NCBI GenBank assembly: GCA_016873735.1
Contig: VGWD01000010.1
Coordinates: 235-64,234 of the forward strand
Direction: 5' to 3'
Length of the DNA stretch: 64,000 bases
From: Ignavibacteria bacterium
Lineage (GTDB): Bacteria > Bacteroidota > Ignavibacteria > Kapaibacteriales > UBA961
Every line of letters begins with the position of its first letter. The stretch's first letter is position 1. Both the position numbers and the translations under genes were made by a program. Positions 43,368 through 47,135 of this stretch are shown here, piece after piece. The notes below the pieces were generated by a model that had not been told where the DNA came from, did no database searches, and worked only from the letters and a program-made list of their open reading frames with translations.

Positions 43368-44054
43368 TTATTTTTTACCAAATTTCAGCAATTGAAATTT
43401 GCTGAATTTACTTTCATTGCCATGAAATATTCGCGCTATATTTGAACGATGAGCATAAATGACAATCAATGATGTGGCAATTGTAAAGTAAATGATGATA
43501 TGATAACCGGGGATTTCAACGCTGAATACATTATGGCGCAAAAACATAGTCAAGGGAATCGTGATTGCAGCAATCATTGATCCCAAAGATACATACCCTG
43601 ATAGCATTACAACCAAGAGAAAAAGTCCAAATGCAATGGCAACTTCGGTGGGTGCGATTGCAAGTAAAAAGCCACCGCCGGTATTGATGCCTTTACCACC
43701 TTTGAAGCCAACAAATACAGACCAAATATGACCAATAACGGCAAATAAACCGGCTATCATCTTCATGACCGTAATGTCTTCAAATGGTGTACGATTTGTG
43801 AAAGCCATTTGGCCATCAAACAATACATTAACCAAAGACACTGCCAAAACACCTTTAAGGATGTCCAGGATTTGAACCAGCAATCCCGATTTCCAACCCA
43901 GAATCCGCATGGCATTCGTACTGCCCATATTTCCGCTTCCCTTTTTCCGAATATCAAATCCAAAAAAGGTTTTACTGATGATCACGGCACTCGGGAATGA
44001 TCCTAGCAAGTAGCTTCCAATGATAATCAAGAGTAATCGTATGATGGGGTCCAT
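43368..44054 (-). CDS. plsY: Glycerol-3-phosphate acyltransferase PlsY
   Basis: YLLGSFP, GSGNMGSTNA, DILKG, GH..F..FKGGKG, HRSNI. Confidence 0.95.
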   Translation of the reverse strand: MDPIIRLLLIIIGSYLLGSFPSAVIISKTFFGFDIRKKGSGNMGSTNAMRILGWKSGLLVQILDILKGVLAVSLVNVLFDGQMAFTNRTPFEDITVMKMIAGLFAVIGHIWSVFVGFKGGKGINTGGGFLLAIAPTEVAIAFGLFLLVVMLSGYVSLGSMIAAITIPLTMFLRHNVFSVEIPGYHIIIYFTIATSLIVIYAHRSNIARIFHGNESKFSKFQLLKFGKK

Positions 44055-44094
44055 AAACAAAGCAAATGAGTGTTTAAAGCTAGATCAACTCCTA

Positions 44095-44102
44095 CAAATA
44101 TA
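44095..44102 (-). promoter_or_regulatory. Putative -7 element TATATTTG upstream of the plsY operon
   Basis: Exact TAnnTTTG, 41 nt before the ATG. Confidence 0.55.
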
Positions 44103-44151
44103 GACAAAAATAAAACCATATTCGTCAACAAGCACAATGAACATATAAGGC

Positions 44152-44167
44152 ATACCCCATGGGGTAT
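44152..44167. promoter_or_regulatory. Perfect 16-bp palindrome ATACCCCATGGGGTAT, CsoR/RcnR/CstR-family operator-like
   Basis: Self-reverse-complementary; C-tract/G-tract flanked by ATAC/GTAT as in CsoR-family operators; 31 nt before the ATG of the ClpB fragment. Confidence 0.65.
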
Positions 44168-44198
44168 TGCAATCAACATTTAACAAGGAGAATGCACC

Positions 44199-45527
44199 AT
44201 GAGTGCGGAATCATCGGGTAATGTCACACGAAAGCGTTTGCTTGAGATCGAAAAGGAACTAGCTGATCTCAAAGAAAAGAAAAGTGCTTTGTATCAACGT
44301 TGGAAAGCAGAGAAAGAAAGCATCACCCGCATTCGCGAAATGAAAGCGGAAATTGAACAATTGCGAAACAAGGCAGCAGATCATGAGCGCAAAGGGGATC
44401 TTGCAAAGGTCGCCGAAATACGTTATGGCACAATCATGCAATTGGAGCAACAGGTCGAAACAGAAAATCAACATCTTGCTACTTTACAATCAACAGGAAA
44501 AATGCTCAAAGAAGAAGTTGATGCATCGGACATTGCAGAAATCGTTGGAAAATGGACGGGCATTCCGGTTCAAAAAATGTTGGAAACGGAAAGAACAAAA
44601 CTCCTCACGATGGAAGATCGCATCCATCAAAGAGTGATTAATCAAGCCGATGCCGTAAAGGCAATCAGCAATGCCATACGTCGATCAAGAGCAGGATTGC
44701 AAGATGCAAACAGGCCAATTGGTTCTTTTATTTTTCTTGGTACGACAGGCGTCGGGAAAACGGAGATGGCAAGAGCACTTGCAGAGTTTTTATTTGATGA
44801 TGAATCGGCAATGATTAGAATAGACATGAGTGAGTATATGGAAAAGCATGCCGTTTCTCGCTTGATTGGAGCTCCTCCGGGATATGTGGGTTATGATGAA
44901 GGCGGACAATTGACAGAAGCAGTTAGACAAAGACCATATTCCGTCGTGCTGCTTGATGAAATAGAAAAGGCACATCCAGAAGTATTCAATATTCTGCTGC
45001 AAGTGTTGGATGATGGTAGATTGACCGACAGTAAAGGAAGGGAAGTGAATTTCAAAAATACGATCAACATCATGACATCAAATCTTGGAACGGAGATTCT
45101 TCAAGATTCACTTTCCGATATCACTGAGAAAAATCGAGAGTCAATTCTCATGGAAGCCAGAACTGGCATAATCAACTTGCTCAAGCAAAGAATGCGTCCG
45201 GAATTTCTGAATCGGATTGATGAAATCATCTTATTTAAACCTTTGACCAAATCTGAGATTCGTCAAATCGCAGTACTTCAAATGAAGAAACTACAATTTC
45301 GATTGGCCAAGGATGATATCACTCTGAATGTTACGGATGACGCATTCGATGCAATTGTCCGACTTGGTTATGATGTTCAATATGGAGCAAGGCCTTTGAA
45401 AAGAGCCATTCAAAAATATGTTGCTGATCAATTATCCATGCATATTCTTGCAGGAGATTTTTCTTCGGGAGATATCATTCAATTGGACGCAGGTGAAACC
45501 GGTGCATTTGAATTCAATAAGGTCTAA
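44199..45527 (+). CDS. clpB: N-terminally truncated ClpB (end of M domain, NBD2 and C-terminal domain only)
   Basis: KRLLEIEKEL..AAEIRYG M-domain; GTTGVGKT, RIDMSEYMEKH, LLDEIEKAH, IMTSN, GARPLKR all intact; AAGGAG RBS at 44185-44190; in-frame TAA at 44181. Confidence 0.75.
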   Translation: MSAESSGNVTRKRLLEIEKELADLKEKKSALYQRWKAEKESITRIREMKAEIEQLRNKAADHERKGDLAKVAEIRYGTIMQLEQQVETENQHLATLQSTGKMLKEEVDASDIAEIVGKWTGIPVQKMLETERTKLLTMEDRIHQRVINQADAVKAISNAIRRSRAGLQDANRPIGSFIFLGTTGVGKTEMARALAEFLFDDESAMIRIDMSEYMEKHAVSRLIGAPPGYVGYDEGGQLTEAVRQRPYSVVLLDEIEKAHPEVFNILLQVLDDGRLTDSKGREVNFKNTINIMTSNLGTEILQDSLSDITEKNRESILMEARTGIINLLKQRMRPEFLNRIDEIILFKPLTKSEIRQIAVLQMKKLQFRLAKDDITLNVTDDAFDAIVRLGYDVQYGARPLKRAIQKYVADQLSMHILAGDFSSGDIIQLDAGETGAFEFNKV

Positions 45528-46195
45528 TCATTCCAAATGAATTCAAAAAGAAGTGATGAGGCGGCAATCATGATGCCGGCATAAGAGATAAGAACGATGA
45601 TTGTTGACAAAGCTTCCGAAACAGGAGCACCATGAAATGCCATCGATAATCCTTCCACCCCGAGCAATGCCGGAGGCAATACCACGGGAAAGGAAAGCAC
45701 GGGAAAAAGTGCTCCTTTCCCGTTTGCTTTTGCTATGATCGCAGCAATAGCAGTTATGGCTGAAGCCATGCAGATGCTCAACAAGATCACCATGATCCAA
45801 AAAAGACTGATATTTCCGACATTGATTGAAGGAAGAAAAAACAAGAATAGACCGGATCCTGTGAATGATAATGCAAGGGATAGAAAACACGTAAACAAGA
45901 ATTTTCCGAAAAAGACTTCGATCGGTGAGGAACTGAGTTTCAATAATAGGGAAGTGCCACGTTCTTCTTCCATGACAAATGTTCTCGAAAGACCGGTCAT
46001 GCTTCCAAAAAACAACACAATCCACAATAATGCAGAAGCAATATAATTATTGATTTGCTCTCCGGCTGTGGTAAATGCTATGGTGGAAATGGCTATCACC
46101 ATAAACAACAATAATGCAGACAATGCTATTCGAGATCGGAACTCAATTGCCATTTCTTTTCGAAACACTGCCATGCTTTTGTATAGAACATTCAT
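45524..46195 (-). CDS. ccmB: Heme exporter protein B
   Basis: FRKEMAIEFRSR, LWIVLFF, RTFVMEEERGT, LFPVLSFPVVLP. Confidence 0.9.
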   Translation of the reverse strand: MNVLYKSMAVFRKEMAIEFRSRIALSALLLFMVIAISTIAFTTAGEQINNYIASALLWIVLFFGSMTGLSRTFVMEEERGTSLLLKLSSSPIEVFFGKFLFTCFLSLALSFTGSGLFLFFLPSINVGNISLFWIMVILLSICMASAITAIAAIIAKANGKGALFPVLSFPVVLPPALLGVEGLSMAFHGAPVSEALSTIIVLISYAGIMIAASSLLFEFIWND

Positions 46196-46199
46196 ATTG

Positions 46200-47135
46200 T
46201 CAATCTTCTCTGCTTGAACATTGATCACAGCCATGATCTTTTGAAAAATTCGCATCTTCCATTTGCAATGTAATATGTTTTGTTTGATATCGATCAATCA
46301 ATACAATTCTCGCATCTTCCAATACTTTTGCATGAAAGTGCTGATCAGCAATGATATGTGCACTGATAGACAATTCACCGGGATGCATTTCCCAAATATG
46401 AATGTCATGTACGCTTAAAACATTCTGAACTTGCCGGAGCACTTCTTTGATATCATGTGATGTGATTCCTTGTGGAGCGCTATCCATGAGAATTACTCCT
46501 GCGGACCTAATCAATCGAAATGTACTGCGAAGAATATATATGGAAATACCGATTGAAAGTATGGCGTCGACGATATCCCATCCCGTAAAATGTATGATGA
46601 TTGCACCTAAGATCACTGCAATAGATGAAAGTAAGTCGGTAATCACATGTAAATATGCACTGCGCGTGCTGAGGTGATGTGCATCATGGAGCATATATGC
46701 ACTAATGACATTCGCAATTAAACCAATCACGGAAGTAATCAGCATTGGTTCTGCATGAATGTCGGCCGTATGAAACAATATACGCATGAACGATTCATAG
46801 ATCAAAAATCCACATATGCTAAGCAAAATGATTCCATTTATCATTGCAGCGAGAACTTCAATTCTCTTGAAACCGAATGTGAATCTTTGCAATCGTTCTT
46901 TATTTTGATTTGCATTTGCATACATCGTCAATGCAATCAATGCAATGATCAAGGCACCTGCATCCGAAAGCATGTGTCCTGCATCCGAAAGCAGAGCCAA
47001 ACTCCCTGACACATAGCTTCCTATCACTTGAGCGATAAAGATCGTGAGCGTCATTGCAATCGCAATTTTCAGAGCGCGTGTGTCTTTTATCGTATGATGA
47101 TGGCCATGCGAGTGTTCATGATGATGTGTATGCAT
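46200..47135 (-). CDS. czcD: Cation diffusion facilitator (CzcD/ZitB-like)
   Basis: His-rich N-terminus, LLSDAGHMLSD, TFGFKRIEVL, AYLHVITD, VHDIHIW, HITLQME. Confidence 0.9.
   Translation of the reverse strand: MHTHHHEHSHGHHHTIKDTRALKIAIAMTLTIFIAQVIGSYVSGSLALLSDAGHMLSDAGALIIALIALTMYANANQNKERLQRFTFGFKRIEVLAAMINGIILLSICGFLIYESFMRILFHTADIHAEPMLITSVIGLIANVISAYMLHDAHHLSTRSAYLHVITDLLSSIAVILGAIIIHFTGWDIVDAILSIGISIYILRSTFRLIRSAGVILMDSAPQGITSHDIKEVLRQVQNVLSVHDIHIWEMHPGELSISAHIIADQHFHAKVLEDARIVLIDRYQTKHITLQMEDANFSKDHGCDQCSSRED

What the first reader, a model, noticed from the sequence alone, without database searches (positions are those of the whole stretch)
44185..45527. Half-ClpB: an independently translated M-domain/NBD2/CTD protein
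Seen: the ORF begins MSAESSGNVTRKRLLEIEKEL, inside the M-domain coiled coil. It has a strong RBS, an in-frame stop 18 nt upstream, and no ClpB-like coding remnant in the 145-nt spacer. Walker A/B, pore loop GAPPGYVGY, sensor 1, Arg finger and sensor 2 of NBD2 are intact. Established: ClpB needs NBD1 and NBD2, and the known short isoform lacks only the N-domain. Inference: (a) a split clpB whose 5' half lies elsewhere and assembles in trans, (b) a single-ring AAA+ or dominant-negative regulator, or (c) a recent deletion-fusion or assembly chimera near 44225.
Basis: partly seen in the sequence, partly recalled or inferred. Interest (0 to 1): 0.65.

Follow-up and report, generated by a model that had tools for sequence, protein, structure and literature searches.

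The report
C-terminal half of split ClpB
This intact gene encodes only the back half of the protein-disaggregating chaperone ClpB, and the front half is a separate gene elsewhere in the genome. The same two-gene layout is kept across green sulfur bacteria and many Kapaibacteria/Ignavibacteria relatives, so a normally single-chain machine is probably built from two proteins here.

Summary
It covers ClpB model positions 430-847: M-domain helices L2-L3, NBD2 and D2-small.

The missing half exists. A 436-aa gene on another contig (G000:C6:6703-8013) covers positions 1-433. The genome has no full-length clpB.

The cut lies in the loop at the tip of M-domain motif 1, just after the E. coli E432 equivalent. 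The same cut occurs throughout the window's order, in four further families of its class, and in all three families of green sulfur bacteria. Other families carry single-chain ClpB.

- Both halves are under strong purifying selection (dN/dS 0.014-0.07).
- They are nearly always kept or lost together.
- Three independent metagenome assemblies contain the identical C-half, two of them with plsY still upstream, so an assembly chimera is excluded.

Best explanation: an old gene fission yielding a two-chain ClpB that assembles in trans. This is inferred and has not been shown biochemically.

Swiss-Prot already names the C. tepidum N-half "Probable chaperone protein ClpB 2". I found no paper describing the split.

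The parts
44094..44110 (+). Conserved upstream block ACAAATATAGACAAAAA. It may be the -35 or upstream part of the promoter of the C-half gene.
   Evidence: CAAATATAGACAAAAA is identical in all 8 genomes of the genus while the flanking sequence diverges. A promoter role is inferred.
44121..44128 (+). TTCGTCAA, a -10-like element about 75 nt upstream of the ATG.
   Evidence: The CGT[CT] core is conserved upstream of both the C-half and the N-half in all 8 genus genomes. In G000, TCGTCAA lies in only 9 non-coding sites with an ORF 10-140 nt downstream. These include groES, lon, a Bax1-I/YccA-like gene, an S41 peptidase and both clpB halves. A promoter role is inferred.
44152..44167 (+). Perfect 16-nt palindrome ATACCCCATGGGGTAT in the 5' leader, probably an RNA hairpin.
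   Evidence: There is a single perfect copy in the window. Genus relatives carry a hairpin at the same position but with different sequence, for example GCCATGTAAATATGGC and TATGCC-N7-GGCATA. No Rfam family matches.
44181..44183 (+). In-frame TAA stop 18 nt upstream of the start codon.
   Evidence: Read directly from the sequence. It closes the frame, so no longer ORF is possible.
44185..44190 (+). Shine-Dalgarno sequence AAGGAG.
   Evidence: Read from the sequence. AAGGAG or a close variant (ATGGAG in G003 and G009) is at the same position in all 8 genus genomes.
44194..44206 (+). Small stem GCAC/GUGC with the AUG in its loop.
   Evidence: It is predicted in the consensus fold of the genus leaders and was also picked up on the minus strand by the terminator scan. 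Any function is unknown.
44199..45527 (+). clpB C-half gene, 442 aa plus stop: M-domain L2-L3, connecting segment, NBD2 and D2-small.
   Evidence: It matches TIGR03346 positions 430-847 and E. coli ClpB residues 433-850.
44199..44225 (+). New N-terminal leader (residues 1-9, MSAESSGNV) that replaces the motif-1 tip loop.
   Evidence: It is variable in sequence and length (3-13 aa) across split lineages. Residues 1-4 have pLDDT below 50.
44208..44390 (+). M-domain helix L2 (residues 4-64). Its first half would pair with helix L1 of the N-half chain.
   Evidence: AlphaFold2 predicts a helix at 4-64. It is equivalent to helix 439-499 of the full-length relative L018, which follows L1 (409-433) and the tip loop (434-438).
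44400..44486 (+). M-domain helix L3 (residues 68-96). With the second half of L2 it forms motif 2, which includes the conserved Tyr of IRYG, the E. coli Y503 equivalent.
   Evidence: The role of Y503 and motif 2 in DnaK binding is taken from PMC4023160.
44712..45227 (+). NBD2 AAA+ module (Pfam AAA_2, residues 172-343).
   Evidence: E = 6.3e-69.
44739..44762 (+). Walker A, GTTGVGKT.
   Evidence: G181, G184, G186, K187 and T188 are invariant in a 50-sequence alignment.
44868..44894 (+). NBD2 pore loop, GAPPGYVGY.
   Evidence: G224, P226, P227, G228, Y229 and G231 are invariant.
44949..44972 (+). Walker B, LLDEIEKA.
   Evidence: D253 and E254 are invariant.
45069..45089 (+). Sensor-1 region, IMTSNLG.
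   Evidence: T293, S294 and N295 are invariant.
45195..45221 (+). Arg-finger region, RPEFLNRID.
   Evidence: P334, E335, F336, N338, R339 and D341 are invariant.
45243..45482 (+). D2-small domain (Pfam ClpB_D2-small, residues 349-428), including sensor 2 GARPLKR (45384-45404).

Best explanation
window:44199-45527 is the C-terminal gene of a clpB that an old gene fission divided into two separately transcribed and translated genes.

The two chains:
- The N-chain (436 aa, on another contig) carries the N-domain, NBD1 and M-domain helix L1.
- The C-chain (this ORF, 442 aa) carries M-domain helices L2-L3, the segment that leads back to NBD1, NBD2 and D2-small.

The chain break sits in the hairpin loop at the tip of M-domain motif 1, directly after the equivalent of E. 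coli E432.

The proposed mechanism is inferred, not shown. One N-chain and one C-chain would pair through the antiparallel L1-L2 coiled coil and the normal NBD1/NBD2 contacts. Six such pairs would form the usual two-tiered hexamer, so twelve chains in all, which would cooperate with DnaK through motif 2 on the C-chain to pull proteins out of aggregates. Both genes appear to belong to one stress regulon in this genus, because they share a TCGTCAA -10-like element with groES and lon.
For: 1. The complement exists. G000 has exactly one N-half (C6:6703-8013, TIGR03346 positions 1-433, 671.7 bits), one C-half (positions 429-847, 616.7 bits) and one ClpC. It has no full-length ClpB. The two half scores sum to about 1288 bits, against the family cut-off of 1232.

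2. The break point is clean and homologous everywhere. N-halves end ...LEIE[KR]xAL[LK]RE plus 2-12 aa. C-halves start with M, then 3-13 aa, then T[KR]KRL.EIE.EL. The N-half aligns to E. coli ClpB 2-434 and the C-half to 433-850. In a predicted full-length relative, L1 is 409-433, the tip loop is 434-438 (the lowest pLDDT in the M-domain) and L2 is 439-499. The C-half model begins with the same 61-residue helix.

3. Conservation is wide.
- Own order: 38 of 41 genomes show the N-half and 36 show the C-half, and the gaps are mostly incomplete genomes.
- Families f14, f15, f17 and f26 of the same class are also split.
- Families f37, f40 and f52 are split and carry the FMO protein, so they are green sulfur bacteria.
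- In complete genomes the halves lie 21 kb to 1.6 Mb apart.

4. The halves are kept together. Among genomes at least 90% complete in the split families of the class, both halves are present in about 47, neither in 3 (G025, G109, G151), and only one scores in 2, one of which (G027) has a frameshifted C-half.

5. Selection is purifying. dN/dS is 0.014-0.021 for the N-half and 0.04-0.07 for the C-half in unsaturated genus pairs. All catalytic motifs are intact.

6. It is not an assembly artefact. The identical protein occurs in three independent assemblies. Two of them (L097, L099) keep plsY upstream, and two (L097, L098) keep ccmB and czcD downstream.

7. The two genes share regulatory features. 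CGTC-type -10-like elements are conserved upstream of both halves in 8 genus genomes. TCGTCAA marks only 9 non-coding, ORF-proximal sites in the genome, including groES, lon, Bax1-I, an S41 peptidase and both halves. In four Chlorobiaceae genomes both halves carry xxAAC-N18-GTT, in 8 of 8 regions.

8. There is a precedent from memory, not found in the searchable library: Beinker et al. 2005 (J Biol Chem) reported that separately produced NBD1-M and NBD2 fragments of T. thermophilus ClpB regain chaperone activity when mixed.
Against: - There is no direct evidence for a physical N-C complex or for disaggregase activity.
- There are no expression data.
- No complex prediction could be run with the tools available.
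- The halves are unlinked and have different -35 regions, so their stoichiometry may not be fixed.
- The promoter motif was defined after seeing the two genes. A more general ECF-type pattern was not enriched across all lineages: 14 of 56 regions against 14 in the reverse-complement control.
- Deleting motif 1 makes E. coli ClpB hyperactive and toxic (PMC4023160). A break at its tip could therefore change regulation rather than be neutral.
Confidence: 0.8

Rival explanations
1. The C-half works on its own as a single-ring AAA+ unfoldase, or as a modulator of another Hsp100 such as ClpC, and the N-half has an unrelated separate role.
For: - The two genes are unlinked and have separate promoters.
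- The isolated T. thermophilus NBD2 is a stable, crystallisable unit (PDB 4lj4 and 4fcv among the hits).
- The C-half evolves about three times faster than the N-half at non-synonymous sites.
Against: - The halves are kept or lost together in about 50 of 52 near-complete genomes of split families.
- The break point is identical in every lineage, and the L1 and L2 coiled-coil residues are as conserved as in single-chain ClpB.
- Neither half has gained a new domain or lost a motif.
- Genomes that have the halves have no other ClpB.
Confidence: 0.1
2. The half-gene is an artefact or a decaying remnant: an assembly chimera, a recent deletion, or a pseudogene.
For: A truncated clpB in a draft metagenome-assembled genome of 61 contigs is a reasonable first suspicion. 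One relative, G027, does carry a frameshifted C-half.
Against: - Three independent assemblies contain the identical protein. Two of them keep plsY upstream and two keep ccmB and czcD downstream.
- The gene lies mid-contig.
- The same architecture is found in complete genomes, including named Chlorobaculum genomes.
- dN/dS is 0.04-0.07.
- The start codon and ribosome-binding site are conserved.
Confidence: 0.01
3. The two products are joined after translation or transcription, by a split intein, RNA trans-splicing or a DNA rearrangement, so the working protein is single-chain after all.
For: Split inteins and developmentally excised elements are known ways of rejoining split genes. This is general knowledge, and no evidence for it was found here.
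Against: - Neither half has a Hint/intein domain.
- The tails beyond the ClpB-homologous sequence are only 2-13 aa and are not conserved.
- The N-half ends in TAATAA, and the C-half has its own ribosome-binding site and ATG.
- The halves lie on either strand and up to 1.6 Mb apart.
- No recombinase lies in the 5.8-7.6 kb that separates the halves in family f15.
Confidence: 0.02

Closest known systems
Canonical single-chain bacterial ClpB / Hsp104 (E. coli ClpB, PDB 4ciu/4d2q; T. thermophilus ClpB, PDB 1qvr; NCBIfam TIGR03346)
   Same: Taken together, the two halves have every domain and motif in the same order: the N-domain, NBD1, a coiled-coil M-domain with motifs 1 and 2, NBD2 and D2-small. 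Identity to E. coli ClpB is about 47-50% in structure-based alignments.
   Different: The polypeptide is broken at the tip loop of motif 1 and the halves are unlinked genes. Each half alone scores only about half the family cut-off: 617 and 672 bits against 1232.
Chlorobaculum tepidum 'Probable chaperone protein ClpB 2' (UniRef100_Q8KA87, 442 aa). From memory, its partner entry is 'ClpB 1'.
   Same: It is the orthologous N-half of the same split, with the same break point. It sits in the same 90% cluster as the N-half of Chlorobaculum sp. MV4-Y. So the two-gene form is already on record in a curated database name.
   Different: It comes from a different class (phototrophic Chlorobia). I found no paper that discusses or tests the split. 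Gupta and Lorenzini 2007 even state that Chlorobi lack ClpB except for one species (PMC1887533).
Engineered two-fragment T. thermophilus ClpB (Beinker et al. 2005, J Biol Chem; cited from memory, not retrieved)
   Same: NBD1 and NBD2 on separate chains reconstitute a working chaperone without a covalent link.
   Different: It is artificial. As I recall, the cut lies after the M-domain rather than inside it. Here the M-domain itself is shared between the two chains.
N-terminally shortened ClpB isoform made from an internal start
   Same: A shorter ClpB product made from its own start codon.
   Different: That isoform lacks only the N-domain and keeps both NBDs on one chain. This ORF lacks the N-domain, NBD1 and helix L1.

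Membership tests
ClpB (TIGR03346 chaperone_ClpB) | The whole-protein score reaches the curated cut-off (1232.1 bits) on one polypeptide. | tested here: not met
   The C-half scores 617.5 bits over model positions 430-847. The N-half scores 671.7 bits over positions 1-433. Neither reaches the cut-off alone. Together they cover the whole model once.
ClpB (TIGR03346 chaperone_ClpB) | NBD2 has intact Walker A and B, pore-loop Tyr, sensor 1, Arg finger and sensor 2, followed by D2-small. | tested here: met
   The structural match to ClpB NBD2 is TM 0.91 at rmsd 2.4 A.
ClpB (TIGR03346 chaperone_ClpB) | A long coiled-coil M-domain (helices L1-L4, motifs 1 and 2) is inserted at the end of NBD1. | tested here: met
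   It is present but divided. L1 closes the N-half (EIDSMPEELD...ALLRE). L2 (helix 4-64) and L3 (68-96) open the C-half. The lengths equal those in a full-length relative.
ClpB (TIGR03346 chaperone_ClpB) | An N-domain and NBD1 with Walker A and B and Arg fingers are encoded in the same genome. | tested here: met
   The N-half has Clp_N twice, AAA and AAA_lid_9. It also has GEPGVGKT, FIDELH, GATT and ERRFQ.
ClpB (TIGR03346 chaperone_ClpB) | There is no ClpP-docking IGF/IGL loop in NBD2. This is what separates ClpB from ClpA and ClpC. | tested here: met
   No [ILV]G[FL] tripeptide lies between sensor 1 and the Arg-finger region (residues 297-333, read). The best family hit is ClpB rather than ClpA: 617 against 366 bits.
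ClpB (TIGR03346 chaperone_ClpB) | DnaK-dependent protein disaggregation activity. | not testable with these tools
   The genome encodes DnaK, and the motif-2 Tyr (IRYG) is present. The activity itself needs biochemistry.
Split-intein / trans-spliced protein | Hint/intein halves at the new C- and N-termini. | tested here: not met
   No intein domain was found by Pfam. The tails are 2-13 aa and variable.
   The palindrome's sequence is not conserved in the genus. Only a hairpin at that position is. I did not search for a repressor.

The most novel reading that the evidence does not exclude
The fission is used, not merely tolerated. The cut lies exactly at the motif-1 tip, the K431/E432 contact that locks neighbouring M-domains head-to-tail and represses ClpB. 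The halves are also separate genes. A two-chain ClpB could therefore have an altered on/off toggle, and its active amount could be set by the supply of one subunit. Either ring might also act alone under some conditions.
Probability: 0.15. Interest if true: 0.75.

Novelty: new variant of a known kind. Interest (0 to 1): 0.6.

Why it matters
ClpB/Hsp104 is the textbook two-ring AAA+ disaggregase. Models of its regulation rest on the M-domain being a single hairpin-like lever on one chain.

A whole radiation, namely green sulfur bacteria plus many Kapaibacteria and Ignavibacteria, has kept a ClpB cut through that lever for a very long time. This shows that covalent continuity between NBD1 and NBD2, and through motif 1, is dispensable in nature.

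It offers three practical things:
- A ready-made system for labelling or mutating the two rings separately.
- A test case for coiled-coil-mediated assembly of split AAA+ proteins.
- A genetically tractable host (Chlorobaculum tepidum) in which to test it.

It also corrects annotation. The halves are labelled "AAA family ATPase" or "Clp protease N-terminal domain-containing protein", and at least one comparative paper scored Chlorobi as lacking ClpB.

Tried and rejected
- Assembly chimera or recent deletion: rejected.
- Pseudogene: rejected by dN/dS.
- Intein or trans-splicing: no domain and the tails are short.
- An N-half remnant in the spacer or anywhere in the window: none.
- Known RNA elements in the leader, such as thermometers: no Rfam match at E <= 1.
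- A sigma-70-type promoter in the spacer: none found.
- A general ECF-type pattern (xxRAC-N18-GTY) upstream of both halves in all lineages: not enriched, 14 of 56 regions against 14 in the reverse-complement control. Only the genus-level TCGTCAA motif and the Chlorobiaceae AAC-N18-GTT motif hold up.
- Counting fission events from the ClpB gene tree: the backbone is unresolved.
  - AU tests do not reject a single clade of all split ClpBs: p = 0.44 for 22 rows and p = 0.30 for 30 rows.
  - The RpoB+RpoC tree needs at least 4 state changes.
  - So one old fission followed by later replacements, and repeated fission at the same loop, both remain open.
- Literature searches for a described natural ClpB split: nothing found.
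- Apparent 'split' clpB in two alphaproteobacterial MAG loci (L071, L079): these are only frameshifts inside NBD1, probably assembly errors.
Full report
**What is in the window.** The ORF listing gives a 442-aa ORF at 44199..45527 (+) that starts MSAESSGNVTRKRLLEIEKEL.

- The sequence shows AAGGAG at 44185-44190 and an in-frame TAA at 44181-44183.
- The gene is the only plus-strand gene in its neighbourhood. plsY (43368-44060) and gpsA lie upstream on the minus strand. ccmB (45524-46297), a cation-efflux gene and pckA lie downstream on the minus strand. It must therefore be transcribed on its own.
- Pfam finds AAA_2 and ClpB_D2-small.
- NCBIfam places it on positions 430-847 of the 853-position ClpB model, at 617.5 bits, half the cut-off.
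- phmmer against PDB aligns residues 6-433 to E. coli ClpB 433-850.
- An AlphaFold2 model has mean pLDDT 85.4. It shows a disordered N-terminal tetrapeptide, a 61-residue helix (4-64), a second helix (68-96) and a standard NBD2 with D2-small.
- Foldseek returns ClpB and ClpC structures.

**The other half.** A search of the window's own genome (2.26 Mb, 61 contigs, 99.9% complete) with the ClpB model finds four pieces:

- the C-half;
- a 436-aa ORF on contig C6 that covers model positions 1-433;
- the two halves of one 848-aa ClpC-like protein.

The N-half carries Clp_N twice, AAA and AAA_lid_9 and lies mid-contig between recF and pdxH. It ends ...QLEIEKQALLRELESQQ followed by TAATAA. It aligns to E. 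coli ClpB 2-434. tblastn confirms one N-half, one C-half and no full-length clpB.

The two genes therefore tile ClpB exactly once. The junction is at E. coli residues about 433-437. The last conserved N-half residue (E431) corresponds to E. coli E432.

A full-length relative (L018) was modelled for comparison. Its L1 is helix 409-433, its tip loop is 434-438 with the lowest confidence in the M-domain, and its L2 is helix 439-499. The cut is therefore in the hairpin turn of M-domain motif 1.

Carroni et al. 2014 define motif 1 as E410-Y455. [quoted passage not shown]

**It is real and old.** The identical 442-aa protein is found in three independent metagenome assemblies. Two of them (L097, L099) keep plsY upstream, and two (L097, L098) keep ccmB and the cation-efflux gene downstream.

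- Own order (genus, family, order; 17 genera, 11 families): nearly every one of 40 relatives has an N-half (positions 1 to about 430) and a C-half (about 428-848) at separate places. This includes complete genomes.
- Same class: 65 of 121 genomes have a single-chain ClpB above the cut-off. Families f14, f15, f17 and most of f26 are split like the window's order.
- Same phylum: three more families, f37, f40 and f52, are split. All eight of their genomes that I tested carry the FMO bacteriochlorophyll protein, and none of six genomes from the window's class does. These three families are therefore green sulfur bacteria.
- One of them is named by its own records as Chlorobaculum sp. MV4-Y. The C. 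tepidum N-half sits in the same 90% cluster under the UniRef name "Probable chaperone protein ClpB 2".
- Proteins 92-96% identical to the window's C-half are labelled "AAA family ATPase" from Candidatus Kapaibacteriota or Ignavibacteria MAGs.
- Outside this group, 70-odd loci from other phyla have the N-half directly upstream in the same frame. The exceptions are loci cut off by a contig end and two or three loci with frameshifts or divergence within the N-terminal part.

The break point is the same in all split lineages.

**Both halves are functional genes that travel together.**

- Pairwise dN/dS within the genus is 0.014-0.021 for the N-half and 0.04-0.07 for the C-half, at dS 0.14-0.48.
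- Among genomes at least 90% complete in the split families of the class, about 47 have both halves and 3 have neither. Two have one scoring half, and in one of these (G027) the C-half carries a frameshift.
- Distances between the halves range from 5.8-7.6 kb to 1.6 Mb.
- The 5.8-7.6 kb cases are in family f15. There the halves lie on the same strand in N-then-C order, with a conserved block of five opposite-strand genes between them.
- Proximity is frequent: 21-130 kb in Chlorobiaceae and 11.6 kb in one f17 genome. This fits gradual separation of a once-adjacent pair, but that is an inference.

**History.** The ClpB gene tree does not resolve the backbone.

- AU tests do not reject a single clade of all split ClpBs: p = 0.44 without Chlorobia and p = 0.30 with them.
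- An RpoB+RpoC tree places Chlorobia, all split, as sister to the window's class.
- Within the class it recovers two well-supported split clades. One is f17 plus f14 plus the window's order. The other is f26 plus f15. They sit among single-chain clades, and the order of these clades is unresolved.
- One single-chain genome (G099) is nested inside split family f26, yet its ClpB groups with that of family f23. That is most simply a replacement by a transferred single-chain gene.
- Both scenarios remain possible: one early fission with later replacements, or repeated fission at one permissive loop.
- Several single-chain ClpBs in this class carry 8-11 extra residues in exactly this loop. These begin RE[LI], like the N-half tails. 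The loop clearly tolerates change.

**Regulation (inference).** No sigma-70-type promoter and no Rfam element lie in the 138-nt spacer.

- Across eight genomes of the genus, the C-half leader keeps a block CAAATATAGACAAAAA and a CGTC-type -10-like element, TTCGTCAA in the window at 44121-44128. The N-half leader keeps GGAAAT-N16-CGTCAA.
- In G000 the heptamer TCGTCAA occurs 282 times in all. Only 9 of these are in non-coding DNA with an ORF 10-140 nt downstream.
- Six of those nine ORFs are groES, lon, a Bax1-I/YccA-type protein, an S41 peptidase and the two clpB halves.
- An HtrA gene has GGAAAT-N16-CGTCAA, like the N-half.
- In four Chlorobiaceae genomes both halves carry xxAAC-N18-GTT.
- These patterns suggest that the halves are co-regulated with other proteostasis genes. 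The motif was chosen after seeing the genes, and a looser pattern is not enriched overall.

**How it most likely works.**

Shown here:
- two intact, conserved genes that are inherited together;
- together they encode every ClpB module once;
- the cut lies in a surface hairpin loop.

Established elsewhere:
- the M-domain extends as a coiled coil from the end of NBD1 (PMC5540906);
- motif 2 binds DnaK, and motif 1 controls access to it (PMC4023160).

Inferred:
- L1 of the N-chain zips onto L2 of the C-chain, rebuilding motif 1 between chains;
- six N-C pairs form the hexamer;
- the free termini at the motif-1 tip may alter the head-to-tail repression contact.

**Comparison and novelty.** This works like ClpB, and jointly the two genes meet every sequence-level criterion of ClpB except being a single polypeptide.

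- The two-gene form is implicitly recorded in the curated name of the C. tepidum N-half.
- I found no publication that describes or tests it.
- One paper lists Chlorobi as lacking ClpB.
- Earlier notes of this scan reached the same reading on other windows. They are not independent evidence. My reading was formed, before I saw them.

**Limits.** There are no expression data, no read mapping and no complex prediction. Assembly in trans remains an inference.

Noticed in passing
window:44152-44167, and the same position in L176-L185: Another first-stage note read the perfect palindrome ATACCCCATGGGGTAT as a CsoR-type operator. In genus relatives it is replaced by different palindromes or hairpins at the same distance from the ribosome-binding site. 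That fits an RNA hairpin in the 5' leader better than a conserved protein operator.
   Followed up: partly
window:44194-44206: A 4-5 bp stem (GCAC/GUGC) holds the AUG of the C-half in its loop. It is present in six of eight genus genomes. It could be a weak translational or thermal control element, or a by-product of the conserved codons for Met-Ser-Ala.
   Followed up: no
G000 contigs C1, C5, C6, C10, C24 (genome.fa); window:44121-44128: A TCGTCAA -10-like heptamer lies upstream of groES, lon, a Bax1-I/YccA-like gene, an S41 peptidase and both clpB halves. An HtrA gene and the N-half share GGAAAT-N16-CGTCAA. This looks like an alternative-sigma (ECF-like) stress regulon in this lineage.
   Followed up: partly
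L018, L143, L144, L150, L154-L156, L119 (motif-1 tip loop): Single-chain ClpBs of families f18, f22, f23, f28, f31 and of G099 have 8-11 extra residues in the very loop that is cut in the split forms. These extra residues begin RE[LI], like the N-half tails. They could be an ancestral long loop that favoured fission, or scars of re-fusion.
   Followed up: partly
L100-L103 (family f15): The N-half and C-half lie on the same strand 5.8-7.6 kb apart. Between them is a conserved opposite-strand block: a PAS histidine kinase, a GT2 glycosyltransferase, an epimerase, a methyltransferase and a large membrane protein. G066 has two further genes, a DAG-kinase-like gene and a metallophosphoesterase. There is no recombinase.
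   Followed up: partly
L119 (G099) compared with L134-L137: G099 is nested in split family f26 on the RpoB+RpoC tree but has a single-chain ClpB that groups with family f23. This is probably replacement of the split pair by a transferred gene.
   Followed up: partly
L118 (G027:C1:984000-987500); G025: The complete genome G027 has an intact N-half, but its C-half is broken into two frames. G025, at 100% completeness, has lost both halves and keeps only ClpC.
   Followed up: no
L005-L008 (G024, G015, G017, G014): Some genomes of the window's family carry, beside the split pair, an extra protein of 914-933 aa that matches the ClpB model end to end at only about 745-770 bits. It may be a divergent Hsp100 paralogue of the ClpG/ClpK or ClpV type.
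   Followed up: no
window:45524-45527: The stop codon of the C-half overlaps the 3' end of the convergent ccmB gene by 4 nt, so there is no room for a terminator between them.
   Followed up: no
window:44739-44762: The NBD2 Walker A reads GTTGVGKT, not the usual GPTGVGKT. The same change is in L017 and in the single-chain relative L019, but not in Chlorobaculum. It is therefore a lineage trait unrelated to the split.
   Followed up: no
L071, L079: Two alphaproteobacterial MAG loci show clpB with a frameshift inside NBD1. The two frames are contiguous, so these are most likely long-read assembly errors rather than splits.
   Followed up: partly
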